Origin: a virus
Lineage: Duplodnaviria; Heunggongvirae; Uroviricota; Caudoviricetes
Virus record (IMG/VR): IMGVR_UViG_648276649_000004
Direction: 5' to 3' (one strand)
Length of the DNA: 31,903 nucleotides
The notes beneath the pieces were generated by a model, which worked only from the letters and a program-made list of their open reading frames with translations, did not search any database and was not told the origin of the DNA. The position numbers and the translations under genes are program-made. Shown here one piece after another: positions 8,093 to 22,821 of the stretch. The number at the start of each line of letters is the position of its first letter. The first letter of the stretch is position 1.

Positions 8093-8114
8093 TTTGCGAA
8101 TCTCACATCTTGTT

Positions 8115-8237: not shown

Positions 8238-8449
8238 CTTATCTCTCCCCTTAACGCCGGGTGGCGGAACTAACTGCTGCACTGCAAAATTTGAATCCCG
8301 CCGTCATGTTCTTACGCCTCGGGCTGGCTACTTAACCCCTGACCACTGCCTGGTAACTCGAAGTATTGCCCTGCATTCTGTGGGGCGGGGTGGGTGGCAG
8401 GCATATAATGTACTTTGTGTTCATTGTTGTAAAGTACATTTAGTACATT

Positions 8450-8944: not shown

Positions 8945-9023
8945 AAGTTCAATGATATTCGCTCTTGAATGTACTGTCAGTTCTGTTATAGCATGTACTC
9001 AAAGTTCACATTGTGAGGGTGAT
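8945..9023. promoter_or_regulatory. Divergent promoter/operator region between racR and the Cro-like gene
   Basis: 79-bp AT-rich spacer between divergent repressor and Cro-like genes, with short repeated motifs (TGTACT, TTCA). Inferred from the classic immunity-region layout; no operator is verified. Confidence 0.4.
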
Positions 9024-9278
9024 ATGAACCAGAAAACACTTGAAGATGTAATCAAAACTGTTCGCGTTGCTGTTGTGGCCGACGTTTGTGGTGTCAGCCA
9101 AAGAGCAATCTATAAATGGATGGATAACGGAAAATTGCCTCGCACAGAATATACCGGCGAAACAAATTACGCTGAAAAAATCGCTCTTGCATCAAACGGA
9201 TTATTTTCTGCCGATGCAATTTTAACTATTGGCAGGAATAAAACTACTACGAAAAAGCTGATGGGAGTTGATTCATGA
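9024..9278 (+). CDS. ydaS: Cro-like DNA-binding protein (YdaS family)
   Basis: Translation MNQKTLEDVIKTVRVAVVADVCGVSQRAIYKWMDNGKLP... has an HTH region; GAGGG ribosome-binding site before the ATG at 9024. The longer 108-aa track ORF would start within the racR promoter region, so the internal start is preferred. Confidence 0.65.
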   Translation: MNQKTLEDVIKTVRVAVVADVCGVSQRAIYKWMDNGKLPRTEYTGETNYAEKIALASNGLFSADAILTIGRNKTTTKKLMGVDS

Positions 9279-9700
9279 AAATCAAGCATGAACACATCCG
9301 CATGGCGATGAATGCCTGGGCGCATCCGGACGGCGAAAAAGTACCGGCTGCGAAAATTACCAAAGCGTATTTCGAGCTGGGAATGACGTTCCCGGAACTG
9401 TATGACGACAGCCATCCGGAAGCCCTGGCTCGCAATACTCAGAAAATTTTCCGCTGGGTGGAGAAAGACACCCCTGATGCGGTTAAAAAAATTCAGGCGT
9501 TGTTACCAGCTATCGAAAAAGCAATGCCACCTCTGCTGGTGGCCCGAATGCGCAGTCATAGCTCAGCCTATTTTCGGGAACTAGTGGAGACGCGGGAACG
9601 ACTGGTGAGAGACGCTGATGATTTTGTCGCAGTGGCGATCGCTGGTTTCAACCAGATGAATCGTGGTGGCCCTGCAGGAAATATTGTGGCTGTGCATTGA
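9275..9700 (+). CDS. ydaT: YdaT-family protein, 141 aa
   Basis: ORF whose ATG overlaps the ydaS stop (ATGA), with a GGGAG ribosome-binding site; same position and size as Rac ydaT. Confidence 0.7.
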   Translation: MKIKHEHIRMAMNAWAHPDGEKVPAAKITKAYFELGMTFPELYDDSHPEALARNTQKIFRWVEKDTPDAVKKIQALLPAIEKAMPPLLVARMRSHSSAYFRELVETRERLVRDADDFVAVAIAGFNQMNRGGPAGNIVAVH

Positions 9701-9771
9701 CTCGCAATATTCATACCGGATCGCTTCCGGCAATTTGTGAGTAAAAAGATTCGGTATCAAAAGAGGTGAGT

Positions 9772-10842
9772 ATGGCTAACGCCTGGCTCAGATTATGGCA
9801 TGACATGCCAAATGACCCTAAGTGGCGAACAATTGCCAGGGTGTCAGGGCAGCCAATTGCAACAGTGATGGCAGTGTATATCCACCTCCTGGTGAGCGCG
9901 TCACGAAATGTCACGCGAGGTCACATTGAGGTCACGACAGAAGATTTGGCAAGTGCGCTCGACGTGACAGAAGAGGTAATTGATTCAATTTTGCAGACGA
10001 TGCAGGGGCGGGTACTTGATGGTGATTTAATCACTGGATGGGAAAAACGCCAGGTGCTTAAAGAGGACAACGGCAATATTTCGCAAACCGCAAAATCTCC
10101 TGCAGAGCGCAAGAGGGCGCAGCGAGAGAGGGAAAGAAAGCGGGAACAAAATGGCGATTGTCACGGCGCGTCACGAAATGTCACGCATATGTCACGACGA
10201 GTCACGACAGATAAAGATACAGATAAAGATACAGATCAAGAAGATCAAAACACTATGGTCCATGGCGTAAAAAACGCCACGAACCAGGCAGGGGATGTTC
10301 AGACCGTCAATCTTGGTCAGCCAGCAGGCACGACACCGGAAGCCGATTCAGCGTATGCGCTGAAAGCCGATTCGGGCGCTGTGCAGCAGGTGATGACCGC
10401 AAGGCCGGAGCAATCACACCAACTGCAGCAGCCCGAAGCCGATTCCGCCATTCAGCGGGAAGCCGATCGGGTAGTCCCGGAAAACACCGGGCAGTCTGTG
10501 GGACGAGTGGATTATCCGGATGTGTTCGAACAGGTCTGGCGGGAGTACCCGTTGCGTGCTGGGGCAAACCCGAAGAAATCCGCTTTCAGTGCCTGGAAGG
10601 CCAGATTACGCGAGGGGGTGCCACCAGAGGCCATGCTGGATGGCGTGAGGCGTTACGCAAGATACTTGGCGGCTACCGGGAAAACGGGAACGGAATTTGT
10701 TCAGCGAGCGACGACGTTTTTTGGACCGGACCGGAATTTTGAGAACCCCTGGTTGCTCCCGGTAAGCGGCACGAACAACCAGCGTTGTGTGAATCATATT
10801 TCTGAACCGGATAACGAAATTCCGCCGGGCTTCAGGGGGTAA
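9772..10842 (+). CDS. ydaU: Replication initiation protein, lambda O-like (YdaU-like but longer); contains internal iteron arrays
   Basis: ATG at 9772 preceded by an AGAGG ribosome-binding site. N-terminal region MANAWLRLWHDMPNDPKWRTIARV... followed by a Lys/Arg/Glu-rich linker and a C-terminal domain; two arrays of 10-bp-periodic TCACG repeats lie inside the coding sequence, as in O-type genes. Confidence 0.7.
   Translation: MANAWLRLWHDMPNDPKWRTIARVSGQPIATVMAVYIHLLVSASRNVTRGHIEVTTEDLASALDVTEEVIDSILQTMQGRVLDGDLITGWEKRQVLKEDNGNISQTAKSPAERKRAQRERERKREQNGDCHGASRNVTHMSRRVTTDKDTDKDTDQEDQNTMVHGVKNATNQAGDVQTVNLGQPAGTTPEADSAYALKADSGAVQQVMTARPEQSHQLQQPEADSAIQREADRVVPENTGQSVGRVDYPDVFEQVWREYPLRAGANPKKSAFSAWKARLREGVPPEAMLDGVRRYARYLAATGKTGTEFVQRATTFFGPDRNFENPWLLPVSGTNNQRCVNHISEPDNEIPPGFRG
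9898..9940. repeat. Iteron array 1: four TCACG-type repeats at 10-11 bp spacing
   Basis: Direct reading: gcgTCACGaaatgTCACGcgaggTCACAttgaggTCACGacag. Confidence 0.55.
10158..10232. repeat. Iteron array 2: five TCACG repeats at 10-11 bp spacing, followed by an A/T-rich tandem repeat (candidate origin)
   Basis: Direct reading: tgTCACGgcgcgTCACGaaatgTCACGcatatgTCACGacgagTCACGacag, then agataaagatac repeated twice. Confidence 0.55.
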
Positions 10843-10882
10843 GTGTTAATTTCTGGTCATGAGGTAATTTTCAGGAGGGCTT

Positions 10883-11305
10883 GTGGCAAAAGTTTTTACA
10901 CAAGAAGAGCGGGAAAAAATTAAAGGGCAGGTTCTTGAACTCGTACGCCAGAGTGGGCGCGAGACGTTACGACAACTGGAAGCTAAAACTGGGGCAACAA
11001 GATATCTGATGAGCGTTCTGGCCAGAGAGCTGGTTGCCAGTGGCGATGTATACAATTCTGGCTACGGGTTATTCCCGTCTGAACAGGCTCGTAAAGACTG
11101 GCAAAATGCCCGCAAAAAATTATCGAGGGCAAAGCTGAAGAAACCGGTTGTGGTTGATCCGGACCTTATCTGGTCATTACCTGACGGAGAAATACGTCGC
11201 TACGACAGTCGCCTAAACATAATCTGTCGCGAGTGCCGGAAGAGCGAAGTTATGCAGCGCATATTGTCGTTTTATCAGGGGGATGTTCGGTATTTATTGA
11301 AGTGA
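10883..11305 (+). CDS. Hypothetical protein, 140 aa (GTG start), in the slot where lambdoid phages carry P or a DnaC-like loader
   Basis: Strong CAGGAGGG ribosome-binding site 3 nt upstream of the GTG at 10883. No Walker motifs, so it is not a helicase loader; function unknown. Confidence 0.55.
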   Translation: MAKVFTQEEREKIKGQVLELVRQSGRETLRQLEAKTGATRYLMSVLARELVASGDVYNSGYGLFPSEQARKDWQNARKKLSRAKLKKPVVVDPDLIWSLPDGEIRRYDSRLNIICRECRKSEVMQRILSFYQGDVRYLLK

Positions 11306-11639
11306 CGAGATTAAAGTGCATTAGTTCAGATGCAAATTGACATTTTGTGGCACAGGGTAGAGCTAGCGTGGTTGTCCGCTTTGTGCCAAGAGCAGACGCT
11401 GGTAATTCGTGCCTAATATACTTCACTTAACTTATATCCCAGCTTTGATACAGATCATACAAATTAAATGCCCCAGTAATTGGCAGGCTGAGTAACTTAA
11501 AACTCCTTAGAATATAGGATGATTTGTATCGGCACTCATTCCACCATGCATTCCGATTAACCCCGCATAGCCAGTTGAACTTTGCTACTCTGTGAGAGGT
11601 AGTACCTTCTATCCAGTGCGGATTTAATTAATGGAATAA

Positions 11640-13643
11640 ATGATTATGAGTGAAAATGATACAACCCCAAAGAAGTCTACAAGCCAGATTAACAAAGCGG
11701 TATTCTTTACATCTGCTTTGCTAATTTTCCTTCTTGTCGCCTTTGCCGCCGTATTCCCGGATGTCGCCGACAAAAATTTTAAACTACTTCAGCAACAAAT
11801 CTTCACGAATGCCAGCTGGTTCTACATACTTGCTGTGGCCCTGATTTTACTGAGCGTCACGTTCCTTGGACTCTCACGTTACGGTGATATAAAGCTGGGC
11901 CCAGACCATGCGCAGCCTGATTTCAGCTACCACTCCTGGTTCGCGATGCTTTTTTCGGCAGGGATGGGGATCGGCCTGATGTTCTTTGGCGTTGCCGAAC
12001 CTGTGATGCATTATCTTTCGCCACCTGTCGGCACTCCAGAGACCGTTGCGGCAGCGAAGGAAGCCATGCGCCTGACGTTCTTCCACTGGGGTCTGCACGC
12101 ATGGGCAATTTATGCCATCGTGGCGCTGATTCTGGCCTTTTTCAGTTACCGTCACGGTCTGCCTTTAACGCTGCGTTCTGCGCTCTATCCCATTATCGGC
12201 GATCGCATTTACGGGCCTATAGGCCACGCGGTTGATATCTTCGCCGTGATAGGCACTGTCTTTGGCGTTGCAACATCGCTGGGTTACGGTGTATTGCAGG
12301 TGAATGCCGGTTTGAACCATCTTTTCGGCGTGCCCATCAATGAAACGGTACAGGTCATTTTGATCGTGGTCATCACGGGGTTAGCGACGATTTCGGTGGT
12401 GTCCGGCCTGGACAAGGGAATACGCATCCTGTCTGAGCTTAATCTGGGCCTGGCGGTGTTGCTCCTGGCGCTGGTCTTGTGCCTGGGTCCCACTGTGCTT
12501 CTGCTGAAGTCATTTGTGGAAAATACGGGTGGTTATCTGTCGGAACTGGTGAGTAAAACGTTCAACCTTTACGCGTATGAACCCAAGTCGAGCAACTGGC
12601 TGGGGGGCTGGACATTATTATACTGGGGATGGTGGCTTTCATGGTCGCCGTTTGTAGGTATGTTCATTGCACGCGTTTCCCGCGGCAGGACAATTCGTGA
12701 GTTCGTGACTGGCGTGTTGTTTGTTCCCGCCGGCTTTACGCTCATGTGGATGACGGTGTTTGGAAACAGCGCCATCTATCTCATCATGAACCAGGGCGCC
12801 ACTGACCTCGCCAATACCGTTCAGCAGGATGTTGCGCTTGCCCTGTTTAATTTCCTGGAGCATTTCCCGTTCTCTTCCGTGCTGTCATTCATTGCAATGG
12901 CGATGGTCATCGTCTTCTTTGTAACGTCTGCTGATTCGGGGGCAATGGTTGTGGATACTCTGGCATCAGGTGGGGTGGCAAACACGCCCGTCTGGCAGCG
13001 AATTTTCTGGGCATCGCTCATGGGCGTTGTTGCTATTGCCCTGCTGATCGCAGGGGGGCTGAGTGCGTTGCAAACCGTAACGATAGCGAGTGCATTGCCC
13101 TTCTCAGTTATCTTATTAATATCCATATACGGACTGTTAAAAGCCCTGCGTCGGGATTTGACCAAGCGTGAAAGCCTTAGCATGGCGACTATTGCTCCTA
13201 CGGCTGCACGTAACCCAATTCCCTGGCAGAGAAGGTTACGCAATATCGCGTATTTGCCGAAGCGCTCTCTTGTGAAACGTTTTATGGACGACATTATCCA
13301 ACCCGCCATGACGCTGGTTCAGGAGGAACTTAACAAGCAGGGAACGATAAGCCACATCAGTGACGCCGCCGAGGATCGTATTCGCCTTGAAGTCGATTTG
13401 GGCAACGAGCTGAATTATATATATGAAGTGAGGCTTCGCGGGTATAACTCACCGACCTTCGCGCTCGCTGCGCTGGATAATGATGAGCAGCAGAGTGAAC
13501 AACATCGATATTATCGCGCTGAAGTCTATCTCAAAGAGGGCGGCCAAAATTATGATGTAATGGGCTGGAATCAGGAACAGCTGATTAATGACATACTGGA
13601 CCAGTACGAAAAACACCTGCACTTCCTGCATCTGGTTCGTTAA
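11640..13643 (+). CDS. BCCT-family transporter, BetT-like (choline / glycine betaine type), 667 aa
   Basis: Multi-span membrane protein with BCCT hallmarks (GIGLMFFGVAEP, WTLLYWGWWLSWSPFVG, ARVSRGRTIREF) and a BetT-like cytoplasmic C-terminal extension ending ...DILDQYEKHLHFLHLVR. Confidence 0.85.
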   Translation: MIMSENDTTPKKSTSQINKAVFFTSALLIFLLVAFAAVFPDVADKNFKLLQQQIFTNASWFYILAVALILLSVTFLGLSRYGDIKLGPDHAQPDFSYHSWFAMLFSAGMGIGLMFFGVAEPVMHYLSPPVGTPETVAAAKEAMRLTFFHWGLHAWAIYAIVALILAFFSYRHGLPLTLRSALYPIIGDRIYGPIGHAVDIFAVIGTVFGVATSLGYGVLQVNAGLNHLFGVPINETVQVILIVVITGLATISVVSGLDKGIRILSELNLGLAVLLLALVLCLGPTVLLLKSFVENTGGYLSELVSKTFNLYAYEPKSSNWLGGWTLLYWGWWLSWSPFVGMFIARVSRGRTIREFVTGVLFVPAGFTLMWMTVFGNSAIYLIMNQGATDLANTVQQDVALALFNFLEHFPFSSVLSFIAMAMVIVFFVTSADSGAMVVDTLASGGVANTPVWQRIFWASLMGVVAIALLIAGGLSALQTVTIASALPFSVILLISIYGLLKALRRDLTKRESLSMATIAPTAARNPIPWQRRLRNIAYLPKRSLVKRFMDDIIQPAMTLVQEELNKQGTISHISDAAEDRIRLEVDLGNELNYIYEVRLRGYNSPTFALAALDNDEQQSEQHRYYRAEVYLKEGGQNYDVMGWNQEQLINDILDQYEKHLHFLHLVR

Positions 13644-13650
13644 CAGCAAC

Positions 13651-13679
13651 ATGCCGCCACAGAGGCGGCATTTATTTAT
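13651..13679 (+). terminator. Rho-independent terminator after the BCCT gene
   Basis: atgccgcc-acagag-ggcggcat hairpin followed by a TTTATTTAT tract, 8 nt after the stop codon. Confidence 0.6.
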
Positions 13680-13706
13680 CCCGGCTGCAATATGAGGGAA
13701 TGCAGA

Positions 13707-14984
13707 ATGATTTCACGCTGGAAATGGATGCTGAAGCAGACATTTAAAAAACTATGGTTCAGGGCAACGTTATTCGCAATTGTCGCAATAATAACGGCCC
13801 TTTTATCAATTCTTTTTAAATCAATGATACCTGAGTCGGTTTCCGTGAAGGTTGGTGCGGAAGCAGTCGATAACATTCTGAACATACTGGCATCGAGTAT
13901 GCTGGCAGTGACCACATTTTCGCTGAGCATCATGGTCACAGCCTACGGTTCAGCCACTACTAATGTGACTCCCAGAGCTACTCGTTTAGTTGTTGAAGAC
14001 GTCACCACACAAAATGTACTGGCCACCTTCATCGGTTCTTTTCTCTTCAGTCTGGTAGGGATTATTGCCCTCAATATGGGAGCTTATGGAGAAAGGGGGA
14101 GAGTCATTTTATTCATTGTAACACTGGTTGTCATTGCCTTAATCCTCATCACATTGCTTCGCTGGATACAGCATTTGACCTCTCTGGGGAGGGTTGGTGA
14201 GACAACGGCAAAAGTAGAACAGGCGGCCATCGAAACATTTATTGCGAGAGCAAGAAATCCCTGTCTCGGCGGATATCCATGGCTTGAGAACAATGAACAG
14301 CCGAAAGGAACGGTTGCAGTTTATCCGAAAAAGATTGGCTATGTTGAATATGTTGATATGGTGAAACTCAGCAAGCTGCTGACCAATGATCCCCGTCATG
14401 TATACCTCGTGGCGCAGCCGGGCAGTTTCATACATCCGTCCACGCCAGTTTTGTACCTGAGTCAGGGCCAGGAGTCATCAATCAGCACCGATTTACTTGA
14501 GACGATTATTGTCTCGGATGTACGTTCATTTGCTCAGGACCCCCGATTTTGTCTTAGCGTCATGGCCGAAATAGCCTGCCGAGCCCTTTCCCCCGCAGTG
14601 AACGATCCTGGAACCGCCATTGATGTCATTGGCAGAGGTGTACGTATACTTTCCGCTTACGCGCAGAATAAATCTGATGAAATAGAAGTGAAATATCCTT
14701 CTGTACATGTTGCACCACTTCAGAATAACGATCTACTTGAAGACTTTTTCTCACCTGTTGCGCGCGATGGTGCCAGTATGAGGGAAATTCAGATAAGGGT
14801 ACTTAAAGGACTGTCGATGCTGAGTAAGGGTTGGCCTGGAATTTTTGCTGAAGCCGCACAAACCCTAGCATTTGAAACATTAGAGCATGCTACTCGTGCT
14901 GACCATATAGATTCTGACAGATATCTAATAAAATCAATTTATTATAATTTATTTAGTGGCGAAGATTCTAATAAAAAACCATAG
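13707..14984 (+). CDS. Polytopic membrane protein with a large soluble C-terminal domain (recalled as DUF2254-type); function unknown
   Basis: GAGGGA ribosome-binding site 7 nt before the ATG at 13707. The N-terminal roughly 160 aa contain several hydrophobic helices; the C-terminal roughly 270 aa are soluble. Family assignment is from memory and unverified. Confidence 0.65.
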   Translation: MISRWKWMLKQTFKKLWFRATLFAIVAIITALLSILFKSMIPESVSVKVGAEAVDNILNILASSMLAVTTFSLSIMVTAYGSATTNVTPRATRLVVEDVTTQNVLATFIGSFLFSLVGIIALNMGAYGERGRVILFIVTLVVIALILITLLRWIQHLTSLGRVGETTAKVEQAAIETFIARARNPCLGGYPWLENNEQPKGTVAVYPKKIGYVEYVDMVKLSKLLTNDPRHVYLVAQPGSFIHPSTPVLYLSQGQESSISTDLLETIIVSDVRSFAQDPRFCLSVMAEIACRALSPAVNDPGTAIDVIGRGVRILSAYAQNKSDEIEVKYPSVHVAPLQNNDLLEDFFSPVARDGASMREIQIRVLKGLSMLSKGWPGIFAEAAQTLAFETLEHATRADHIDSDRYLIKSIYYNLFSGEDSNKKP

Positions 14985-15114
14985 TTGCGGAGCAAGCGAT
15001 ACGGTTGTTGGCAAGTCAAGGGCAAAGCATTCGCGTGAGAGTGGGCGTCTGCTTTGTGCCAGAAGCGGACATACGTAACTTATGATACGCATCGCCAATC
15101 ATCCGTTTCAAACA

Positions 15115-15996
15115 TCAACGCGGAAACGTTTTAAGAATGTAATCCCGAACATAGGCGGTTCGGCTGTTATTAGCCGTCCTTTTGTTCCAGACCAGATAAA
15201 GATGATTAGTCGGAGCGAGGTCTGCAGGTGTCACTGAAATCAGGCGACCACTTTTCAGGTCATTGTCACAGTGATAATCCGGCAGCACTGTCCACCCGTG
15301 GCCGTCACAGACCAAGTCGCGGATAATACGTAAATCCGGAATGGTGAATGTAGCCTGCATCTCAGGGGCTCTCTGAAACATGGAGGCCCAGAGCGCTCTA
15401 ATCAGTGGCAACTCTTCGTCATAAGCAATCAGCGGTAATGAGGCAAGCGTTTCAGCACCAGGTTCTGATCCGATGATCTCTGACATGGCGGGAGCATGAA
15501 CAAGGAGCATGCGTTCAGTCAGTAGATGTGCATAGCCGTACAGACGGTCATCAGGCATAGATGCGGTAACAGCGAGATCGGCGCTCCCGTCATGCAAAAG
15601 GGAATAAATACGTTGCTTATTGCCGGTATGAAAGCGTAGGCGATACCCCTCCTTCATTAGTGGAGCCATTACTGTCCCAAGCCGGGAATGAATAAAATCT
15701 GGCGGTCCTGCCAGATTAATTGTTCCCCCACGTACAGAGCCTGACCGGAAAGAGGACAGCTTTTCTTCCAGACCATCAATGAAGGGTGAAACTGAGCGGG
15801 CAAGCTCATCCGCAGCTTCGGTTGCCGTCACGCCTCTGGCCTGCCTGATAAACAGACGCTTACCAACCAGAGTCTCAAGAGACTGGATATGCTGTGACGC
15901 CGCGGGCTGAGTGATGCCCAGTAGTTCTGCCGCCTTTGAAAAGGAGCCAGAGCGATAGGCCTCAAGAAACGTTCGCAGATGGCTCAGATGGCTCAT
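15115..15996 (-). CDS. LysR-family transcriptional regulator, 293 aa
   Basis: N-terminal HTH (MSHLSHLRTFLEAYRSGSFSKAAELLGITQPAASQHIQSLE) and a LysR substrate-binding domain; the start overlaps the stop of the upstream ChaC-like gene. Confidence 0.85.
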   Translation of the reverse strand: MSHLSHLRTFLEAYRSGSFSKAAELLGITQPAASQHIQSLETLVGKRLFIRQARGVTATEAADELARSVSPFIDGLEEKLSSFRSGSVRGGTINLAGPPDFIHSRLGTVMAPLMKEGYRLRFHTGNKQRIYSLLHDGSADLAVTASMPDDRLYGYAHLLTERMLLVHAPAMSEIIGSEPGAETLASLPLIAYDEELPLIRALWASMFQRAPEMQATFTIPDLRIIRDLVCDGHGWTVLPDYHCDNDLKSGRLISVTPADLAPTNHLYLVWNKRTANNSRTAYVRDYILKTFPR

Positions 15997-16685
15997 AGTG
16001 AAGCGCCTCGCTGATGAAGTTTATCGTTACAGGGAGCCTCATGCAGAGCAAGGGCCAGTTCACTCACGTAATCATCCCGTATTCCCAACGCACCCAGAGT
16101 GGCCTGCAGTTTCCATACATAATCTGCATTCGTGCCAATGTCTCCACGGGCAGATGCGATGCTCAACGCTACGGTCGCTGTAAGATTGTCCTGTTCATAA
16201 TGCGGATGCAGTCTGTCTGATACGAAAGCCAGCGCCTGAATTTCCTTACCGTTTCCTAGCGAAACGTCTGCCCAGACCGGACGGTAAAGACCGGTTATCA
16301 TCTCGCGCGTCCAGACAATTTCCAGCTCATTAATAAGAGTCGATTCCGGCAGTCTGAACGCAATACCTTCGGTAATTCCACCTTCGTCGAGCGATAACAT
16401 CCTGCCGGGGACATCAGGAGTCGCTCGTCCGGATATCAAACGAATGCAGAAACTGCGCTGCCATCCTTTCAGACGGGCCCGTTGCATTTCTTCAATCGCC
16501 AGCACGGGATTCCACATCAATGACCCGTAGGCAAATATCCAGACAGGAGCACCCGTCGGGCGCTCCTCCAGAGTAGAGTTCATTGATGCGCGTATTTTTT
16601 CAGCGTCCCAGAGCATATTCGCCGGGAGCAGCGCTTCATGCACCCTGACAAATGTGCCATTAAGCATATTTTCACGGGTAAGCAT
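15993..16685 (-). CDS. ChaC-like gamma-glutamylcyclotransferase family protein, 230 aa
   Basis: Contains the YGSLMWNP motif and overall ChaC-like architecture; GGGAGG ribosome-binding site upstream of the ATG at 16685. Confidence 0.75.
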   Translation of the reverse strand: MLTRENMLNGTFVRVHEALLPANMLWDAEKIRASMNSTLEERPTGAPVWIFAYGSLMWNPVLAIEEMQRARLKGWQRSFCIRLISGRATPDVPGRMLSLDEGGITEGIAFRLPESTLINELEIVWTREMITGLYRPVWADVSLGNGKEIQALAFVSDRLHPHYEQDNLTATVALSIASARGDIGTNADYVWKLQATLGALGIRDDYVSELALALHEAPCNDKLHQRGASL

Positions 16686-16696
16686 ATAACCTCCCT

Positions 16697-17896
16697 TTAC
16701 TGGCCTACGATTTTAACCTGTTGAAATTTACGACTGTGGCTGCGACGGATTTGTGCAAGCAGCAACAGCAGGCCGAGCAGAGAAACAATCGCACCGCTGA
16801 TACCGGTATACACGATACCGGCGTGGCTTATAGTAATGCTGCCCAGTACTGATCCCAGCGCTATACCTGAGTTGAAGCCCGCAATATTCAGGCCGGCAGC
16901 AACACCATGCGCATGAGGAGCATGTTGCTCAGCGACACCAATCAGACGGGCCTGCAGTGCCGGCACTGCGGCAAATGTCACCATACCCAGCAGCGCAACC
17001 AGAATGCCCATGCTCACCGGTGAGGATGACAGCAGCCACATACCAAGCACGACAACAACAATGCCGCTAATGATGAGTATATTGGCACGATTAACCCCCA
17101 TGCTGTCGGTAAGTTTCCCACCAAGAATATTACCTACCGCAGCTGTAATACCGTAAACCAGCATAAACAGACTCACCGTTGCTCCGGTAACCCCTGTCAC
17201 CTGCGTCAGAATAGGTGCGATAAAGGTGTAATCCGTAAACGAGCCTGCATACGCCAGCACCGTAACCAGCGCGCCGGCCAGCAACTTACGGTTAAACAGC
17301 ATGCCGATATTCTGCATTGCTGAGTCACTATGTTCACCGGGCACGCTGCGTACGGGATCTTTCATACCGAACAACAGTCCAAGGAATCCGAACGCGCCAA
17401 AAGCGGCAATAGCGCCGAGAACTGGACGCCATGAGACCACCCCCCCCAACCATGTACTCAGCGGTACGCCGATTGCCATCGCCAGAGTAAAGCCACCAAA
17501 TACCACAGCCACCGCTCTGCCTGCTTTACCCGGTCCAGCAAGACGAGCTGCGGTACTGGATGCCGCAGCCAGAAACAGGCCGTGTCCCAGACCAGCAATG
17601 AACCGCGCTAACAGGAGCTGAGGTAATGTGGCTGCAAACGCGGCCGCCAGACTACCGGCAGTAAACACAACGGCAGTTGTAAGCATTACATTTTTCCGGC
17701 TCCAGCTTGCTGTCAGCGCAGACAGTACGGGTGCCGCGAACGTTGCCCCCAGTGCATAGGTTGTAACCGCTGCCCCGGTCTGCTCCACACCCACACACAA
17801 CCCCTGAGCCATAACGTCTGTCAGCCCAATGGGGACAAATTCCGCGAGTCCGAGCGCAAAGGCACTGATAGTAAACACATAAATAACAAATGGCAT
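16697..17896 (-). CDS. MFS transporter (12-TM efflux-type permease), 399 aa
   Basis: Highly hydrophobic 399-aa ORF with an MFS-like layout; AGGAG ribosome-binding site 6 nt upstream of the ATG. It forms a same-strand cluster with the ChaC-like and LysR genes. Confidence 0.85.
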   Translation of the reverse strand: MPFVIYVFTISAFALGLAEFVPIGLTDVMAQGLCVGVEQTGAAVTTYALGATFAAPVLSALTASWSRKNVMLTTAVVFTAGSLAAAFAATLPQLLLARFIAGLGHGLFLAAASSTAARLAGPGKAGRAVAVVFGGFTLAMAIGVPLSTWLGGVVSWRPVLGAIAAFGAFGFLGLLFGMKDPVRSVPGEHSDSAMQNIGMLFNRKLLAGALVTVLAYAGSFTDYTFIAPILTQVTGVTGATVSLFMLVYGITAAVGNILGGKLTDSMGVNRANILIISGIVVVVLGMWLLSSSPVSMGILVALLGMVTFAAVPALQARLIGVAEQHAPHAHGVAAGLNIAGFNSGIALGSVLGSITISHAGIVYTGISGAIVSLLGLLLLLAQIRRSHSRKFQQVKIVGQ

Positions 17897-18315
17897 GACT
17901 GGCTCCTGATTTAAGTAAGGAGTGCAGTCTGATTTAGAAAAACAGATAAATAAAATAATGTAAACTTCAGGCGGGATAAAATTATTTATATCTAAGGCAA
18001 AGATTCAATATTCCCACAGCACACAGAAGTTTTCTGTCTTCAGGGAGAGGAGCTTCGAAAGTTCAGACGAAAAATTCCTGCGGCCCCTTTAAGAGTCAGT
18101 TGGCCGGGTTTGGTCCGCTCCTCGCTCAAAGCGGACTAGAAGGTTAGCTTGCGTCGGACTTGGCGTATTTAAAGAAGTGCTGGTGGTGACTGGTTGTTGT
18201 GTTCCATTTCTACAGAACAAAATCACAGAAACTATACCCAATAGTTATATTGAATCAATGATGAGACAGCCTCATATTTATCAGAACTGGTGTACGTCCA
18301 ATACAGGAGGTTGTC

Positions 18316-18405
18316 GTGCTGGTTCTCAAATGTGCGCTAGCTATTGCGGCTGTAATGGCAATTTATTGTCTTGCTGTTGTTCTTATGGAGCGGCTTTCTG
18401 ATTGA
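18316..18405 (+). CDS. Candidate small hydrophobic peptide, 29 aa (MLVLKCALAIAAVMAIYCLAVVLMERLSD)
   Basis: Perfect AGGAGG Shine-Dalgarno 5 nt upstream of the GTG at 18316; predicted single transmembrane helix. It competes with the 74-aa track ORF in another frame, so this is a low-confidence call. Confidence 0.3.
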   Translation: MLVLKCALAIAAVMAIYCLAVVLMERLSD

Positions 18406-18619
18406 TTACATACTGGCTAGAAAAAAGGTGTTACCTTGGTTTATCTTTGTCCGGCAAGGTGCGCTCATTAATCTTAAGTAAATTTATTGCTCAAGTATTC
18501 AGATTACTTCTTATGGTTGAAGTCTCCTGTCAATGTAGAACCAATATATTTACAAAAATGAGACCCGTCGGGGATAGCCCTGCCGGGTCTGACTGTTAAA
18601 GCATTTTTAATATGATCAT

Positions 18620-18958
18620 CTATTTTTTGGTGCTATAGACTTTTTCGCCCGAGAAGTCTGGAGCGACCCAAAAGTTAATATTAAACTGAGCATCATCGCT
18701 TAGTTCAACACGGTGCCAGTATTGTGGTGGGCTTGTTGCAAAAGCGCCAGCATTAATGACTACTTTTATCTCCGGTTCAGTAGCATTCTCATCAGTAAAA
18801 CCATAATATGTTACAGTGCCTTCCATTACGCACAACTGCCCAAAAACACCTGCTGCTGTATTATGATGTGTTAATAACGCTGAAGGTACGTTCTCTTTTG
18901 TGAAGAACGGAGTTGAGCGTTTGATTACCCAATCTTTAGGAATTCTCTTGTGTGTCAT
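18620..18958 (-). CDS. YeaR-like protein (DUF1971 / tellurite-resistance-associated fold), about 112 aa
   Basis: Similarity by eye to E. coli YeaR (...RSTPFFTKENVP..., ...YWHRVE..., ...FNINFWVAPDF...); start taken at the internal Met, which has a GAGG ribosome-binding site. Confidence 0.7.
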   Translation of the reverse strand: MTHKRIPKDWVIKRSTPFFTKENVPSALLTHHNTAAGVFGQLCVMEGTVTYYGFTDENATEPEIKVVINAGAFATSPPQYWHRVELSDDAQFNINFWVAPDFSGEKVYSTKK

Positions 18959-19771
18959 AACCACCTCATCAAAAACATGCATTATAAATGCGTGTTTTTG
19001 AGGGTTATGTCAAGCTGTTATGAAACACATAATTGATATGTTGATTAGAGGAGAAGATATAATAAATATGGTTGTTTTTCGTATAACTATTTGTTTTACT
19101 TTTAGTTTATGCATTCTGTGTGTTAGGAATAAGTTATTAAAGTTTAATCAAAAAATCTCGATGTAGTCCACATAGATTATTGTTACTGAACCTTATTGTG
19201 TGTATTAGTTGTGTTCTGAAATTTCAGCTTAATTATTTATGATGTATTTTTTAACGATAAATATTTTCCCAGGATACCTTTACTGTGTATATAAATAAAT
19301 TATATACACATAAATAATGTAAAGGCGTCCTTTTAGATATATCTTATCAAATGTTAATGACTTGAGTGGGAAATATGATTCCAGCAACTTATCATGTGGC
19401 TACTTTATAAAAATAATGCCCATATAAAACAACAAGCGAAAAGGATTACGGATAAAAAAGGAGCGAGATGTGCGAACTTGTTATTTTCCATGTTTAACCA
19501 CCTTAAATAATTGATGATGACGGGATGATTGCATCTGTAATGCTTTTATTGAAATGTTATGATAAAAAAGAACTTTTGCATAACATTAAAATGTAATTTA
19601 TCTAATCGTTTTTAATAATAAATGTCGTATTTCTATCCTTGTACCAGCTATTTGATATGTAGTGTTTGTTCATGCTATGTGGGGCTTTACACCATAGCCA
19701 GTTTATTTATACTTTATTCGTCAGCCTGAACAACTGGCATCTGCTGCGCTGCGCCATCGAGAGATTGAGAA

Positions 19772-20371
19772 ATGGCGCATATACAACTGGTCAAACAAAC
19801 TTCTTCTGGTTTACTTCTCCCGGCGACGCCGGAGAGTTGCGATTTTCTGCATCAAATCAAAATAGGTGAGTGGATACACGCAGACTTTAAGCGTGTGCGT
19901 AACTACGCATTCCACAAGCGTTTTTTCAAACTCCTGCAACTGGGATTCGATTACTGGACTCCGGTCGGTGGGGCGATCACGCCTCGCGAACGAGAACTGC
20001 TGTCTGGTTTCGTTGATTACCTGTGCGAATCAGTTGGTCGGGAACACACGCCAGCCCTGAGTGATGCCGCAGAGCAATACCTTAACACCGTTGCGACTCG
20101 TAGAACCCGGGATACGGCGTTGCTAAAGTCGTTTGAGGCTTTCCGCGAGTGGGTAACCATTCAGGCCGGATTTTACACCGAGCATATTTATCCGGACGGT
20201 AGCCGTGGGCGTCGGGCAAAATCCATCGCTTTTGCGAATATGGACGAAGTCGAGTTTCAGCAGGTTTATAAATCTGTACTGAATGTGCTGTGGAACTGGA
20301 TTCTGTTTCGTAAATTCTCCTCTCAGGAGGAAGTTGAAAATGTGGCCGCACAACTACTGGAGTTTGCGTAA
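19772..20371 (+). CDS. Lambdoid nin-region protein (recalled as DUF1367-like), 199 aa
   Basis: First ORF after the AT-rich spacer; its stop overlaps the start of the next gene, as in nin operons. Family assignment is from memory. Confidence 0.5.
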   Translation: MAHIQLVKQTSSGLLLPATPESCDFLHQIKIGEWIHADFKRVRNYAFHKRFFKLLQLGFDYWTPVGGAITPRERELLSGFVDYLCESVGREHTPALSDAAEQYLNTVATRRTRDTALLKSFEAFREWVTIQAGFYTEHIYPDGSRGRRAKSIAFANMDEVEFQQVYKSVLNVLWNWILFRKFSSQEEVENVAAQLLEFA

Positions 20372-20661
20372 TGGTGAATTTACGTAAAGCGGCTAAAGGC
20401 CAGATGTGCCAGATCAGAATCCCTGGCTACTGCAATCACAATCCCGAAACCTCTGTGCTGGCGCATTACAGGCTGGCGGGGACGTGCGGAACAGCGACAA
20501 AACCACACGATATGCAGGCGGCGATAGCCTGTAGCTCATGCCACGATCTAATCGACGGGCGGGTAAAAACCAGCGATTACACCAAAGAAGAATTGCGCCT
20601 GATGCATGCTGAAGGGGTTTTTCGCACACAAGAAATCTGGAGAAAGAAAGGTCATTTATGA
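20371..20661 (+). CDS. YbcO-like (DUF1364) putative nuclease of lambdoid prophages, 96 aa
   Basis: 96-aa Cys/His-rich protein (...CQIRIPGYCNHNPETSVLAHYR...CSSCHDLIDGR...) of the size and pattern recalled for DLP12 YbcO; translationally coupled to both neighbours. Confidence 0.65.
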   Translation: MVNLRKAAKGQMCQIRIPGYCNHNPETSVLAHYRLAGTCGTATKPHDMQAAIACSSCHDLIDGRVKTSDYTKEELRLMHAEGVFRTQEIWRKKGHL

Positions 20662-21200
20662 TTTACCCAACGAATACAGGAAAAAGCGGAGAACACCTTC
20701 GCCTCACCACGCTGGAAAGTGTCTGGATTCAGGGAAAACTACGTATGTGGGGGCGCTGGTCGTATATTGGCGGTGGCAGGTCAGGGAATATGTTCAATCA
20801 GTTGTTGGCATCCAAAAAACTGACGAAAACAGCCATTAATGAAGCCCTGCGTAGAATGAAAAAAGCGGGAATAGAGAAAGCTGAGCTGGAAGCGTTTTTG
20901 CGAGAGATGATCAACGGCAAGCAAAAGAGCTGGCTGGCGCATTGTACTGATGCAGAGGCGTTATGTATTGATCGAGTCATAAGTGAGGTGCTGGCAGAGC
21001 ATCCAGGATTGATTTGCATTCTCCGGCAACGCTATGAAGGGCGGGGGATGACTAAGCGCAAAATGGCTGAATTGCTAAATGATGGACACCCAGAGTGGTG
21101 TTTTAGCACATGCGAAAAACGGATTGCTAATTGGTTAGCTGTTGCTGAGTATGCCCTATATATTCCCATGCGTGAATCATTTGCTGAGAAAATGGCTTGA
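20658..21200 (+). CDS. Putative late-gene antitermination protein Q-like, 180 aa
   Basis: Last gene of the nin-type operon, immediately upstream of an intrinsic terminator and the lysis cassette, which is the Q position; Cys/His-containing C-terminus. Called by position, not by verified homology. Confidence 0.5.
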   Translation: MIYPTNTGKSGEHLRLTTLESVWIQGKLRMWGRWSYIGGGRSGNMFNQLLASKKLTKTAINEALRRMKKAGIEKAELEAFLREMINGKQKSWLAHCTDAEALCIDRVISEVLAEHPGLICILRQRYEGRGMTKRKMAELLNDGHPEWCFSTCEKRIANWLAVAEYALYIPMRESFAEKMA

Positions 21201-21280
21201 TTTCTTACGTATAAACTGCTTCAATTTTGCTATGCTTCGCAAAGCTGTATCGCGAGGCGGATTGCAGACATGGACATCGT

Positions 21281-21656: not shown

Positions 21657-22242
21657 CTGGTTTATTGTATGCCAAATGATTATTAAAAAGGTTGTGTTAA
21701 TAACAAAATCCGAAATAATATGCCTGCATATTTTTATCTTGCTTATATTCTGCATATTGTGCATAGCAGGCTCATCCCTGCAATCAAAACTGTATGATGA
21801 GTATTTTTTTTTCCTTTTTTCCAGTCATCTGATGATGACCTGCTTCTTTTTAATCCGGATCGACATCAGTTTTTTAAGATAATTCCTGCGAGTTATATGC
21901 ATAAATACCACAAACTCCGCATTTTATGTGGTTGGGAGTTGCCGGGCGCGCAGTGAGTTTGCTAAGAAAACTCCTGCATGGTGAATCCCCCTGTGCGGTG
22001 GGGTGATACCATTAACCTTTTCTGTCGCCGACAGGTATCACGAACATTTTGTTCACCGGGAGGCACCCGGCACCATGCACTTCAATAGATTCTCTCCACA
22101 TTATGGATATTCTTTCAGAATATCCCACGCAGACTTTGTGTAAATGTTAACAAATGTGCGTTTTATTTGATCTGATTCGCTGTTTGAGCGTCCAAAACAA
22201 CGGTATATATAATCCTTTACTATATGACATATGTGAGGAAAA

Positions 22243-22671: not shown

Positions 22672-22821
22672 TATTTATTGTTTTGTAATAAACGGTTTCG
22701 GCTTAGGTTTGTTCTGACACAGCTACGGCACTGAGCTAAATTTAGCGGATAGTCAGCTCTGAGCCAGTGGCGGACGTAACAACTACTATTGCTGAGATTT
22801 TAATGGATTGAGGAGCAAGAA

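What the first reader, a model, noticed from the sequence alone, without database searches (positions are those of the whole stretch)
11306..19771. An 8.5-kb non-phage cargo island sits where P/nin genes and (in Rac) trkG would be
Between the O-like gene and the nin/Q genes there are no phage functions. Instead there is a BetT-like BCCT transporter with its own terminator, a membrane protein of unknown function, a same-strand MFS / ChaC-like / LysR cluster, a YeaR-like protein, a candidate small membrane peptide and a 0.8-kb AT-rich spacer. K-12 Rac carries a different transporter (trkG) in the equivalent place, which suggests that this slot repeatedly captures membrane-transport cargo.
Basis: partly seen in the sequence, partly recalled or inferred. 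Interest (0 to 1): 0.5.

Follow-up and report, generated by a model that had tools for sequence, protein, structure and literature searches.

The report
Two gene cassettes in phage hotspot
The "cargo island" is two separately captured gene cassettes sitting in a swap-slot of a Rac-type prophage, bounded by a short conserved DNA site that also marks a classical variable locus of phage P2 and cassette arrays on plasmids, so it gives a concrete handle on how phages and plasmids exchange accessory and anti-phage genes.

Summary
The genes are there as described: BetT-like BCCT transporter, DUF2254, LysR, ChaC-like, MFS, YeaR-like DUF1971. The window is a decayed Rac-type prophage at ttcA, and 282-297 of 5426 complete E. 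coli genomes carry the island.

The 8.5 kb is not one unit. True cargo is 11389-18121. The rest (18137-19771) is backbone shared with sequenced phages.

The cargo is two cassettes bounded by a palindromic site, GTCCGCTTT-N6-AAAGCGGAC, at 11374, 15047 and 18113 (three copies; none expected by chance).
- In related phages the same sites bracket 17 different fillings, several of them matching defence systems.
- Cassettes recur at 95-99.9% identity in unrelated backbones (P2-like phage, IncF plasmid). Identity falls to random level exactly at the sites.
- Phage P2's fun(Z) gene has the same site pair. Inverted repeats there were reported in 2004, so the principle is known.
- An IS110-family element inserts only into this site, and the site is abundant in Alphaproteobacteria.

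The trkG comparison is wrong. trkG lies after the lysis genes and coexists with the island in other strains.

No recombinase was identified. Site-specific exchange is my inference, and short-homology recombination remains a rival.

The parts
11306..11373 (+). Backbone leader after the DUF977 gene. It contains TGGCACAGGGTAGAGC (11348-11363), which is also conserved upstream of the left site in phage P2.
   Evidence: Column conservation is at least 0.71 (mostly 0.93 or more) across 14 loci with different cargos. P2 has tGGCACAGAGTAAAGC at the same relative place.
11374..11397 (+). Site 1, the left slot boundary: GTCCGCTTT GTGCCA AGAGCAGAC. The left arm and spacer belong to the backbone. The right arm belongs to cassette 1.
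   Evidence: The motif has 3 matches in the window against 0.00 expected. Backbone conservation stops after site position 15.
11389..15055 (+). Cassette 1 (BCCT + DUF2254), from the right arm of site 1 to the left arm of site 2.
   Evidence: It is 99.9% identical over 3667 nt to Shigella plasmid p202106367-3, while 300-nt flanks are 45-46% identical, which is random level. It is also on an IncY plasmid and is followed by five other partner fillings: three in Rac-type slots and two on plasmids.
11640..13643 (+). BCCT-family transporter, BetT-like (667 aa; RefSeq starts it two codons later).
   Evidence: Pfam BCCT E = 7e-199. NCBIfam BetT subfamily 752 bits, cut-off 695.
13651..13671 (+). Terminator-like hairpin after the BCCT gene (8-bp stem, 6 G-C pairs, T-rich tail).
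13692..14984 (+). DUF2254 predicted membrane protein. It accompanies the BCCT gene in nearly every context seen (truncated in a few).
   Evidence: Pfam PF10011 E = 2e-92. Co-occurrence is seen.
15047..15070 (+). Site 2, the internal junction: GTCTGCTTT GTGCCA GAAGCGGAC. The left arm is the end of cassette 1 and the right arm is the start of cassette 2.
   Evidence: Other arrays keep the left arm and spacer but have a different right arm and different downstream DNA (L007, L012, L089, L005).
15062..18121 (-). Cassette 2 (MFS, ChaC-like, LysR, all on the minus strand).
   Evidence: It is present in 297 E. coli genomes, essentially always together with cassette 1. It is a chromosomal three-gene unit in Enterobacter sp. 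BIGb0383 (86.9% over 2898 nt) with no sites beside it.
15115..15996 (-). LysR-family regulator.
   Evidence: Pfam HTH_1 and LysR_substrate.
15993..16685 (-). ChaC-like gamma-glutamylcyclotransferase.
   Evidence: Pfam ChaC E = 3e-35. Homologues are listed.
16697..17896 (-). MFS transporter (DHA1-like; best NCBIfam match Cmx/CmrA, well below its cut-off).
18113..18136 (-). Site 3, the right slot boundary: GTCCGCTCC TCGCTC AAAGCGGAC, which is the same site in inverted orientation (reverse complement GTCCGCTTT GAGCGA GGAGCGGAC). The spacer and right arm belong to the backbone.
   Evidence: (37-nt inverted repeat with site 1, 76% complementary). The orientation is confirmed by the polarity of the IS110-family insertions.
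18137..18420 (+). Backbone segment shared with phages Tritos and Evi, where it lies upstream of hokD/mokW. It contains a 29-aa hydrophobic ORF at 18316-18405 with no family match.
   Evidence: 94.5% identity to both phages. Annotation. ORF.
18620..18982 (-). DUF1971 (YeaR/TehB-N-like) gene. It is part of the phage backbone, not of the cargo.
   Evidence: Pfam PF09313. It is shared with phage vB_EcoS-666R9 and relatives.
18983..19771 (.). AT-rich (GC 0.30) non-coding spacer upstream of the DUF1367 gene. It is phage backbone.

Best explanation
The finding covers a hypervariable accessory-gene slot of a Rac-type lambdoid prophage. In this copy the slot is filled with two independent cassettes.
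- Cassette 1 (11389-15055) encodes a BetT-like BCCT transporter and a DUF2254 membrane protein.
- Cassette 2 (15062-18121) encodes an MFS transporter, a ChaC-like gamma-glutamylcyclotransferase and a LysR regulator.

The slot and each cassette are delimited by a 24-30-bp site made of two inverted 9-12-bp arms (consensus AAYGTCCGCTYT) around a 6-bp spacer. The spacer is GTGCCA at the left and internal sites. At the right site it is GAGCGA, read in the inverted orientation.

Shown: outer arms stay with the backbone and inner arms travel with the cassette. The same cassettes occur in unrelated replicons, with similarity ending exactly at the sites. The same site pair flanks fun(Z) in phage P2.

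Inferred: cassettes are exchanged by conservative recombination at the spacer between sites of the same type. Two mechanisms fit: double exchange of a whole filling, or insertion of a circularised cassette into a GTGCCA site, which would explain why the BCCT cassette always sits first. The enzyme would act in trans, because no recombinase is shared by the backbones.

Inferred from family membership only: cassette 1 imports choline or betaine-type osmoprotectants. Cassette 2 is a LysR-controlled unit for transport and breakdown of a gamma-glutamyl compound such as glutathione. The rest of the reported 'island' is phage backbone.
For: Gene identities come, and the Rac context at ttcA (RalA).

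Site and breakpoints:
- The motif occurs 3 times in the window, all at junctions, against 0.00 expected.
- Half-site scan over about 1.4 Mb of related loci: 212 hits against 8 in shuffles. Position weight matrix scan: 127 against 0.
- Breakpoints are sharp. Backbone conservation is at least 0.93 up to site position 15 on the left and from position 10 on the right. Cargo ends fit a 12-bp terminal inverted repeat.

Cassette behaviour:
- 17 distinct fillings occur among 44 loci.
- The 447-aa cassette is 99.8% identical between a Rac-type and a P2-type phage; flanks are 46-49% identical.
- The BCCT cassette is 99.9% identical between the window and a Shigella IncF plasmid; flanks are 45-46%.
- The 319-aa cassette is 95.0% identical; flanks are 39-43%. 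An unrelated control gives 45%.
- P2 fun(Z) is bracketed by GTCCACTCT GTGCCA AAAGCGGAC and TTCCGCTTC TCGCTC AAAGGAAAC.
- A review states that fun is flanked by inverted repeats enabling site-specific exchange, citing Nilsson et al. 2004 (PMC8987985).

Nature of the site:
- The arms do not co-vary, and the double-variant combination is depleted (Fisher p = 0.006). This fits duplex half-sites bound by protein.
- As single strands the window's sites are not unusually stable (z -0.7 to +0.3).
- An IS110-family element is inserted at the identical position of such sites in at least 11 contexts, so the site is a discrete recognisable unit with polarity.

Origin: cassette 2 is a chromosomal unit in Enterobacter-like genomes.
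Against: - No recombinase was identified. P2 and this prophage share only a weak tail-fibre-assembly match, the plasmid flanks share nothing with the window, and no recombinase recurs near the sites in 120 genome loci.
- No circular intermediate or empty slot was seen.
- The junction predicted for precise loss of cassette 1 is absent from all 5426 E. coli genomes. Cassette 2 is essentially never seen without cassette 1. This particular array therefore looks frozen.
- The prophage encodes RecE and RecT, which can recombine short homologies, so a dedicated enzyme is not required by the data.
- In Alphaproteobacteria the site behaves like a dispersed intergenic repeat between ordinary genes. That may point to a different biology.
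- How a site-less chromosomal operon (cassette 2) acquired the terminal half-sites is unexplained.
- The transport and enzyme functions rest on family membership alone.
Confidence: 0.65

Rival explanations
1. There is no dedicated recombinase. The sites are conserved short sequences (REP-like or regulatory), and cassette swaps arise from short-homology recombination between co-resident phages and plasmids. RecET, Red or RecA would use the 24-30 bp of near-identity at both ends of each cassette.
For: - recE and recT are in the same prophage.
- No recombinase is shared by the backbones or recurs near the sites.
- The site is a dispersed repeat in alphaproteobacterial chromosomes.
- This array shows no sign of excision.
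- A comparable idea (conserved motifs mediating module shuffling) was proposed for T4 PeSL elements. That is my own knowledge and was not checked here.
Against: - P2-like phages lack RecET yet have the same slot.
- Outer and inner arms always segregate with backbone and cargo respectively, in 14 or more different junctions.
- Two heterospecific spacer types in inverted orientation are kept at every slot.
- Arm variation looks like protein half-site constraint.
- This model does not explain how new cargos acquire terminal half-sites either.
Confidence: 0.25
2. One reading: a single 8.5-kb island in a slot that repeatedly captures membrane-transport cargo and is equivalent to the trkG position of K-12 Rac.
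For: Two transporters (BCCT, MFS) and a membrane protein are present. In K-12 trkG lies only two annotated genes after ydaW.
Against: - trkG follows Rz/Rz1 in K-12, ATCC 43896 and phage 666R9, and coexists with the island in ATCC 43896.
- The slot's other 16 fillings include no other transporter and several defence systems.
- The 8.5 kb is two cassettes plus backbone.
Confidence: 0.04
3. The motif is a regulatory element, either a transcription terminator or stabiliser hairpin, or an operator. It is kept next to each gene block for expression reasons, and its position at homology breakpoints is a by-product.
For: The sites lie in intergenic positions at gene-block ends. The paired alphaproteobacterial sites fold very stably (z = -5.6).
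Against: - Single sites fold no better than shuffles.
- The arms show no compensatory covariation.
- There is no T-tract, and a separate canonical terminator follows the BCCT gene.
- Regulation does not explain identical cassettes in unrelated replicons with breakpoints inside the site, or an IS that targets it.
Confidence: 0.05
4. The stretch is ordinary core-genome DNA or an assembly join.
For: None. A 94%-identical copy of the BCCT-DUF2254 pair does exist elsewhere on many E. coli chromosomes, but it lies inside an IS-rich, plasmid-like island.
Against: The stretch is contiguous at 100% identity inside Rac-type prophages in many complete genomes. It is present in only about 5% of complete genomes.
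Confidence: 0.01

Closest known systems
Inverted-repeat-flanked Z/fun locus of P2-like coliphages (Nilsson, Karlsson & Haggard-Ljungquist 2004, Mol Biol Evol 21:1; as summarised in PMC8987985)
   Same: The same site sequence and the same arrangement: a GTGCCA-spacer site on one side and a TCGCTC-spacer site on the other. It flanks fun(Z) in the P2 reference genome and a shared 447-aa cassette in P2-like prophages. Exchange with bacterial genomes by site-specific recombination was already proposed.
   Different: Here the slot is in a lambdoid Rac-type phage, after the DUF977 replication-region gene rather than between tail genes G and FI. It holds a two-cassette array with an internal site, and the cargo is metabolic or transport genes. 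I could not read the 2004 paper, so I cannot say whether it already reported Rac-type prophages, plasmids or arrays.
Integron gene cassettes (attI/attC, IntI)
   Same: Discrete gene cassettes, each with its own recombination-site half at its ends, stacked in arrays next to a fixed backbone site and shared between replicons. A dedicated IS110-family element targets the sites, as IS1111-attC elements target attC (the attC comparison is my own knowledge).
   Different: There is no IntI-type integrase beside the array. The site is a simple 9-6-9 palindrome, not an attC with R''/L''/L'/R' boxes. Cassettes lie on either strand and carry their own regulators and terminators. Two heterospecific site types bound the slot.
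pdif modules of Acinetobacter plasmids (Xer-dependent; my own knowledge)
   Same: Modules are bounded by short sites with a 6-bp central region in inverted orientation, carry diverse accessory genes, move between plasmids, and have no recombinase encoded in the module.
   Different: The arms bear no resemblance to the XerC/XerD arms of dif (GGTGCGCATAA / TTATGTTAAAT, from memory). Both arms share one consensus, which suggests a single protein species.
[quoted passage not shown] 2022, PMC9122126)
   Same: A fixed position in a phage genome holds many alternative fillings, largely anti-phage systems. CBASS, AbiH, Tmn, SIR2 and PDC-S15 are seen in this slot.
   Different: Those hotspots are cos-proximal (old/tin in P2; psu-int in P4). 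The proposed exchange mechanism there is cos ends plus homologous recombination, and no bounding site was described.
Classical morons, and trkG of Rac
   Same: These are non-phage genes inserted between genes that are adjacent in relatives. The BCCT gene has its own terminator.
   Different: trkG occupies another slot, after Rz, and no such site was found anywhere in K-12 Rac. Classical morons are not defined by bounding recombination sites.
REP/BIME extragenic palindromes
   Same: A short palindromic unit, highly repeated between genes in some genomes (up to 16 per 8 kb in a Hyphomicrobiales MAG), often paired, and targeted by an IS110-family element as E. coli REPs are by IS621 (my own knowledge).
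   Different: In enterobacterial phages and plasmids it is rare and confined to cassette boundaries. The arms show no hairpin-preserving covariation. No RAYT-type gene was seen nearby.

Membership tests
P2 Z/fun-type inverted-repeat-flanked cassette locus | The insert is flanked by the inverted repeats that flank fun(Z) in P2. | tested here: met
   The window's sites 1 and 3 and P2 positions 15335 and 17432 share the arm consensus and the two spacer types, GTGCCA and TCGCTC.
P2 Z/fun-type inverted-repeat-flanked cassette locus | The same insert is found in other replicons, with similarity ending at the repeats. | tested here: met
   Three cassettes are 95-99.9% identical inside, and 39-49% identical (random level) outside the sites.
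P2 Z/fun-type inverted-repeat-flanked cassette locus | Position between tail genes G and FI of a P2-like phage. | tested here: not met
   Here the slot follows the DUF977 gene of a Rac-type lambdoid prophage. P2 and the window share no other genes.
P2 Z/fun-type inverted-repeat-flanked cassette locus | Exchange is catalysed by a site-specific recombinase. | not testable with these tools
   No enzyme was identified. An experiment is needed.
Integron | An IntI-type tyrosine recombinase gene and attI next to the array. | tested here: not met
   The only integrase in the window is the phage integrase IntR at 781-2016, about 9 kb away. The genes flanking the slot are DUF977 and DUF1971/DUF1367.
Integron | attC sites (imperfect palindromes with R''/L''/L'/R' boxes and a GTTRRRY core). 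| tested here: not met
   The sites are 9-6-9 palindromes with arm consensus GTCCGCTYT. Among the cargo ends listed, I saw a GTTRRRY-like string next to the site only for the Evi cargo (by eye).
Integron | Promoterless cassettes in a single orientation, read from Pc. | tested here: not met
   Cassette 1 is on the + strand and cassette 2 on the - strand. Cassette 2 has its own LysR regulator, and the BCCT gene has a terminator.
Xer/dif (pdif-type) modules | 28-bp sites with XerC and XerD arms around a 6-bp centre. | tested here: not met
   The 6-bp centre is present, but the arms (GTCCGCTTT) are unlike the dif arms and both arms share one consensus. The dif sequence is from memory.
Moron (autonomous accessory gene unit in a phage) | Inserted between genes that are adjacent, or differently separated, in related phages. 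| tested here: met
   Tritos, Evi, 666R9 and 17 slot variants.
Moron (autonomous accessory gene unit in a phage) | Own promoter and terminator, and deviant composition. | tested here: inconclusive
   A terminator follows the BCCT gene. Promoter-like sites are not above chance (14 found against 13.2 expected). GC and GC3 lie within the range of the phage genes.
REP/BIME-type extragenic palindromes | High copy number dispersed through the host chromosome. | tested here: inconclusive
   In the enterobacterial loci examined, sites bracket gene blocks and none lie elsewhere in the 31.9-kb window. They are dense in alphaproteobacterial loci. Whole-genome counts could not be made.
REP/BIME-type extragenic palindromes | A hairpin maintained by selection, shown by compensatory changes in the arms. 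| tested here: not met
   The frequency of Watson-Crick pairs equals the expectation for independent arms, and the compensatory T..A pair is depleted.
BCCT transporters, BetT subfamily | Full-length match above the curated cut-off. | tested here: met
   NF007399 scores 752 bits against a cut-off of 695. Pfam BCCT covers positions 1-485 of 485. The substrate was not tested.
Rac-type prophage | intR-xisR-ralR/RalA-recT-recE-racC-kilR-sieB module integrated next to ttcA. | tested here: met
   The window is 99.84% identical to the annotated Rac-type prophage of ATCC 43896. Rfam finds RalA at 2337-2515.

The most novel reading that the evidence does not exclude
The 30-bp site marks a largely uncharacterised, integron-like cassette-exchange system that has no cis-encoded integrase. 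It links P2-like phages, Rac-type lambdoid phages, conjugative plasmids and chromosomes across Proteobacteria. It moves defence and metabolic genes as precise cassettes, uses two heterospecific site types (a natural form of recombinase-mediated cassette exchange), has its own dedicated IS110-family parasite, and depends on a recombinase that is still unknown.
Probability: 0.3. Interest if true: 0.85.

Novelty: new variant of a known kind. Interest (0 to 1): 0.62.

Why it matters
How phage and plasmid hotspots swap their accessory and defence genes is an open question. For the P2 and P4 hotspots only a speculative cos-end mechanism has been offered (PMC9122126).

Here the exchange points are defined to the nucleotide, and the same site serves two unrelated phage families and plasmids. 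That makes the question directly testable: look for circular cassettes, mutate the spacer, and fish for the binding protein.

It also gives a simple search key for cataloguing cassettes, many of which are unannotated candidates for new defence systems.

For this window specifically, it shows that a prophage can pick up an osmoprotectant transporter that also circulates on resistance plasmids. The same BCCT-DUF2254 module is 99.8-99.9% identical on qnrS1 and CTX-M-15 plasmids, and about 93% identical on more than 1200 Klebsiella plasmids.

Tried and rejected
- Transposon or IS-borne island: there is no transposase inside 11306-19771, and no direct repeats other than the sites.
- Integron: no IntI and no attC (see membership tests).
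- Xer/dif: the arms are unlike dif.
- hok/sok remnant at 18113-18620: no Rfam hit at gathering threshold. The small ORFs have no Pfam hit.
- Rfam family for the site: none in the window. In four alphaproteobacterial loci the only hit was a sub-threshold ar35 match.
- Structural hairpin: fold z-scores are ordinary and the arms do not co-vary.
- Sigma-70 promoter reading into the slot from TTGACA at 11338: not called by the scan. I considered a sigma-54-like TGGCAC by eye and found no -12 element.
- Cis-encoded recombinase: P2, the window and the plasmid flanks share nothing suitable. Clustering 654 ORFs from 120 genome loci gave no recurrent recombinase.
- Precise loss of cassette 1: the predicted junction is in 0 of 5426 genomes.
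- Partner cargos without the BCCT cassette in the Rac backbone: none among the 80 loci.
- Composition as evidence of foreign origin: not discriminating.
- Literature: the motif strings give no relevant hit. Nilsson 2004, Odegrip 2006 and the id I tried for the Christie & Calendar P2 review are not held.

Full report
**1. What the window is**

Window 1-24632 is 99.84% identical to the Rac-type prophage of E. coli ATCC 43896, which is integrated next to ttcA. That prophage carries intR, xisR, rcbA, ralR, recT, recE, racC, kilR, sieB, a cI/cro-like pair, a YdaT-family gene, a replisome-organiser gene (window 9766-10842) and a DUF977 gene (10883-11305). Rfam finds the RalA antitoxin RNA at 2337-2515.

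To the right of the finding lie DUF1367, YbcO, a Q-like DUF1133 gene, two TolA-C-domain genes, lysozyme and Rz. After those comes a truncated large-terminase gene joined directly to a tail-fibre fragment. The prophage is therefore decayed, and this copy has no trkG.

**2. Checking the observation**

The BCCT protein passes NCBI's BetT-subfamily cut-off (752 bits against 695). A terminator-like hairpin follows its gene at 13651-13671.

The 8.5 kb is contiguous at 100% identity in many complete genomes, and 282 of 5426 genomes hold at least 80% of it. It is therefore neither an assembly join nor core DNA. Composition does not set it apart: cassette GC is 0.48 and 0.52, against 0.43-0.54 for the phage genes.

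**3. The island is not one unit**

Sequenced phages share the backbone but not the cargo.
- Tritos and Evi match the window up to 11405 and again at 18113-18420.
- vB_EcoS-666R9 matches 18623-21259, which includes the DUF1971 gene and the AT-rich spacer.

So about 1.7 kb at the right of the 'island', and 100 nt at its left, are phage backbone.

The remaining 6.7 kb is itself composite.
- 11406-15072 (BCCT + DUF2254) is 99.8-99.9% identical to a segment on E. coli, Shigella, Klebsiella and Enterobacter plasmids. A 94%-identical copy lies in an IS-rich chromosomal island in about 1550 E. coli records, and copies of about 93% identity occur on more than 1200 Klebsiella plasmids.
- 15073-18112 (LysR, ChaC-like, MFS) occurs in 297 genomes, essentially only together with the first part.
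- Another Rac variant keeps the BCCT part but has two different genes in place of the second part.

**4. The bounding site**

All three junctions carry the motif GTCYGC-N12-GCRGAC, at 11374, 15047 and 18113. These are the only three matches in the 31.9-kb window, against 0.00 expected by chance.

The motif reads as two 9-bp inverted arms around a 6-bp spacer. Sites 1 and 2 have spacer GTGCCA. Site 3 is the same site inverted, with spacer GAGCGA on the other strand.

I fetched 80 viral contigs that encode the DUF977 protein. In them the site is found only in the slot, and it begins 72 nt after the DUF977 stop codon. Forty-four loci have both boundary sites, and together they hold 17 different fillings of 1.0-6.8 kb.

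Conservation across the different fillings is at least 0.93 up to site position 15 on the left, and from position 10 onward on the right. Each cargo brings its own inner arms, which fit a 12-bp terminal inverted repeat: ARAGCGGACRTT ... AAYGTCCGCTYT. A position weight matrix built from the half-sites finds 127 sites in about 1.4 Mb of related loci and none in shuffled sequence.

**5. Cassettes move between unrelated replicons exactly at the site**

Identity inside each cassette, against identity in the 300-nt flanks outside the sites (an unrelated control gives 45%):

| Cassette | Found in | Inside | Flanks |
|---|---|---|---|
| 447-aa gene, follows the BCCT cassette in one Rac-type slot | P2-like prophages, between the tail-fibre and tail-sheath genes | 99.8% | 46-49% |
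| BCCT + DUF2254 | the window and Shigella IncF plasmid p202106367-3 | 99.9% | 45-46% |
| 319-aa gene | a Rac-type slot and a Klebsiella-phage-like backbone | 95.0% | 39-43% |

In every case the inner arms are retained and the outer arms differ.

The Shigella plasmid reproduces the whole layout: a GTGCCA site, the BCCT cassette, another GTGCCA site, a reverse-transcriptase cassette, then a TCGCTC site.

**6. Link to phage P2 and to the literature**

In the P2 reference genome, fun(Z) is bracketed by GTCCACTCT GTGCCA AAAGCGGAC (60 nt after gene G) and TTCCGCTTC TCGCTC AAAGGAAAC (before the FI promoter).

[quoted passage not shown] 2004 (PMC8987985). I could not obtain the 2004 paper. Rousset et al. 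2022 analysed other hotspots (old/tin in P2, psu-int in P4) and proposed a cos-end mechanism. The motif string itself is absent from the searchable library.

The principle is therefore known for P2. I could not establish whether its use in a lambdoid Rac-type slot, in plasmid arrays and in multi-cassette arrays has been described.

**7. What fills the slot elsewhere**

Pfam and PADLOC identify the following cargos:
- a CBASS cyclase with a 2TM effector
- AbiH
- a Tmn/YobI-like NTPase
- PDC-S15 (FRG domain; this is the Tritos cargo)
- a ThsA-like SIR2 with a deaminase and a Ham1 protein
- an Mrr-like nuclease
- RES/HEPN proteins
- a Lit-like U49 peptidase
- a NUDIX + HAD pair
- a GNAT with an HTH-cupin regulator
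- several genes with no match

The slot is thus mainly a defence and accessory hotspot. The transporter filling in this window is the exception, not the rule.

**8. Origin and likely function of the cargo**

The MFS-ChaC-LysR trio is a chromosomal three-gene unit between ordinary genes in Enterobacter sp. BIGb0383 (86.9% nucleotide identity over 2898 nt) and in a metagenomic contig (82%). Neither has sites beside it. It is therefore captured chromosomal DNA. How it gained the terminal half-sites is unexplained.

The chromosomal copy of the BCCT module ends in a degenerate site, GTATGCTTT GTGTCA AAAGCAAAC. In that case the site travels with the module.

The functions below are inferred from family membership only.
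- The BCCT protein probably takes up choline or betaine-type osmoprotectants. DUF2254 is a constant partner of unknown role.
- The second cassette probably transports and breaks down a gamma-glutamyl compound under LysR control.

**9. Mechanism**

For duplex protein-binding half-sites and against a hairpin function:
- Single sites fold no better than shuffled sequence.
- The arms do not co-vary. At the most variable arm position the compensatory T..A pair is depleted (6 of 321, Fisher p = 0.006). This suggests that at least one consensus arm is needed per site.

For a discrete, polar site:
- A 1496-bp IS110-family element is inserted at the identical position (...GnGCnA RR | IS | AAGCGGAC) in every full-length copy with both flanks, in at least 11 contexts. 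The polarity is the same for both spacer types.

Against a phage-encoded enzyme:
- P2 and the window share only a weak tail-fibre-assembly match, and the plasmid flanks share nothing with the window.

Against ongoing activity in this particular array:
- The junction predicted for precise loss of the BCCT cassette occurs in none of 5426 genomes.

I therefore favour conservative exchange at the spacer by a trans-acting recombinase. The two heterospecific site types would prevent self-deletion. Short-homology recombination, for example by the prophage's own RecET, remains a serious rival.

**10. Beyond enterobacteria**

I calculate about 9 chance hits for uniform base composition.

Many hits are in Hyphomicrobiales, Xanthobacteraceae, Bradyrhizobium and Nitrosomonadaceae. 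The consensus there is ATGTCCGCTTT-N6-AAAGCGGACAT. There are up to 16 sites in 8 kb, often paired 45 nt apart (GGGTCA spacer, then GTGCCA spacer), and they lie between ordinary genes. In those genomes the site looks like a dispersed intergenic repeat.

In Pantoea, Klebsiella, Citrobacter, Leclercia, Rahnella and Mixta the two enterobacterial site types again bracket blocks of 1-3 genes.

Of these flanks, 40 were the Rac-type DUF977 side, 24 the P2 gene-G side and 6 the end of the BCCT cassette. The other 47 fell into 34 further clusters.

**11. The trkG claim**

In K-12 the gene order is ydaW, rzpR, rzoR, trkG. trkG follows the Rz/Rz1 remnants because the slot, the nin/Q genes and most of the lysis genes are deleted there. 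No site remains in K-12 Rac.

In ATCC 43896 and in phage vB_EcoS-666R9, trkG lies after Rz. In ATCC 43896 it coexists with the island. The two positions are different slots.

**12. Verdict**

The stretch is two cassettes in a site-bounded hotspot, plus phage backbone.

The site system is a known but obscure feature of P2. Its reach into lambdoid phages, plasmids and other Proteobacteria, and its dedicated insertion sequence, make it more interesting than an ordinary moron.

The enzyme and the act of recombination remain unproven.

Noticed in passing
L048 3710-5205; L100-L111: A 1496-bp IS110-family element (425-aa DEDD transposase) is inserted at exactly the same position of the cassette-boundary site in every full-length copy with both flanks, in at least 11 distinct contexts and for both spacer types. 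It appears to be a site-specific insertion sequence for this site family.
   Followed up: partly
L118-L237, e.g. L150 1-8000, L143, L177: The same site is abundant in alphaproteobacterial and Nitrosomonadaceae genomes. There are up to 16 copies in 8 kb, often paired 45 nt apart with GGGTCA and GTGCCA spacers, between ordinary chromosomal genes. No recombinase recurs in the flanks.
   Followed up: partly
window 26193-28887: A truncated gpA-type large terminase (436 aa) abuts a tail-fibre fragment (Collar and fibre repeats) and a tail-fibre assembly gene. The prophage has lost its head and most tail genes, and unlike its close relative in ATCC 43896 it has no trkG after Rz.
   Followed up: partly
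window 22243-23217: Two adjacent genes encode TolA C-terminal domains between the Q-like gene and the lysis genes. This may be another accessory insertion.
   Followed up: no
window 21946-22132 and 28649-28847: Rfam matches above the gathering score to the sRNA STnc100 (86.6 bits) downstream of the Q-like gene, and to IS009 (229 bits) inside the tail-fibre assembly gene region.
   Followed up: no
window 18316-18405: A 29-aa strongly hydrophobic ORF (MLVLKCALAIAAVMAIYCLAVVLMERLSD) lies in the backbone segment that sits upstream of hokD/mokW in phages Tritos and Evi. It has no Pfam match, and there is no hok/sok RNA match. It could be a type I toxin-like peptide or nothing.
   Followed up: partly
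L088 (K. pneumoniae IncFIB/IncFII plasmid) 8001-11486; The BCCT-DUF2254 pair (about 93% identical) is a standard component of more than 1200 Klebsiella plasmids. In the one examined it lies next to the sil copper/silver operon, is truncated by IS1 and has no sites. On E. coli and Shigella plasmids the 99.9% copy sits next to qnrS1, and on the Shigella plasmid CTX-M-15 is also nearby.
   Followed up: partly
window 11348-11363; L099 (P2) 15309-15324: Upstream of the left site, both the Rac-type backbone and P2 keep tGGCACAGrGTArAGC, although the surrounding genes are unrelated. In P2, GGCACAGAG pairs with CTCTGTGCC of the site (fold z = -3.9). The functional left site may therefore be longer than 30 bp.
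   Followed up: no
L007 11768-11824; L168, L175, L182: Between some adjacent cassettes there are two sites, a TCGCTC type and then a GTGCCA type, about 33-40 nt apart. This looks like two slots joined head to tail.
   Followed up: no
L089 15822-18478: On the Shigella plasmid the cassette after the BCCT cassette encodes a reverse-transcriptase family protein and a 433-aa protein, and may be a defence-associated RT system. I did not classify it.
   Followed up: no
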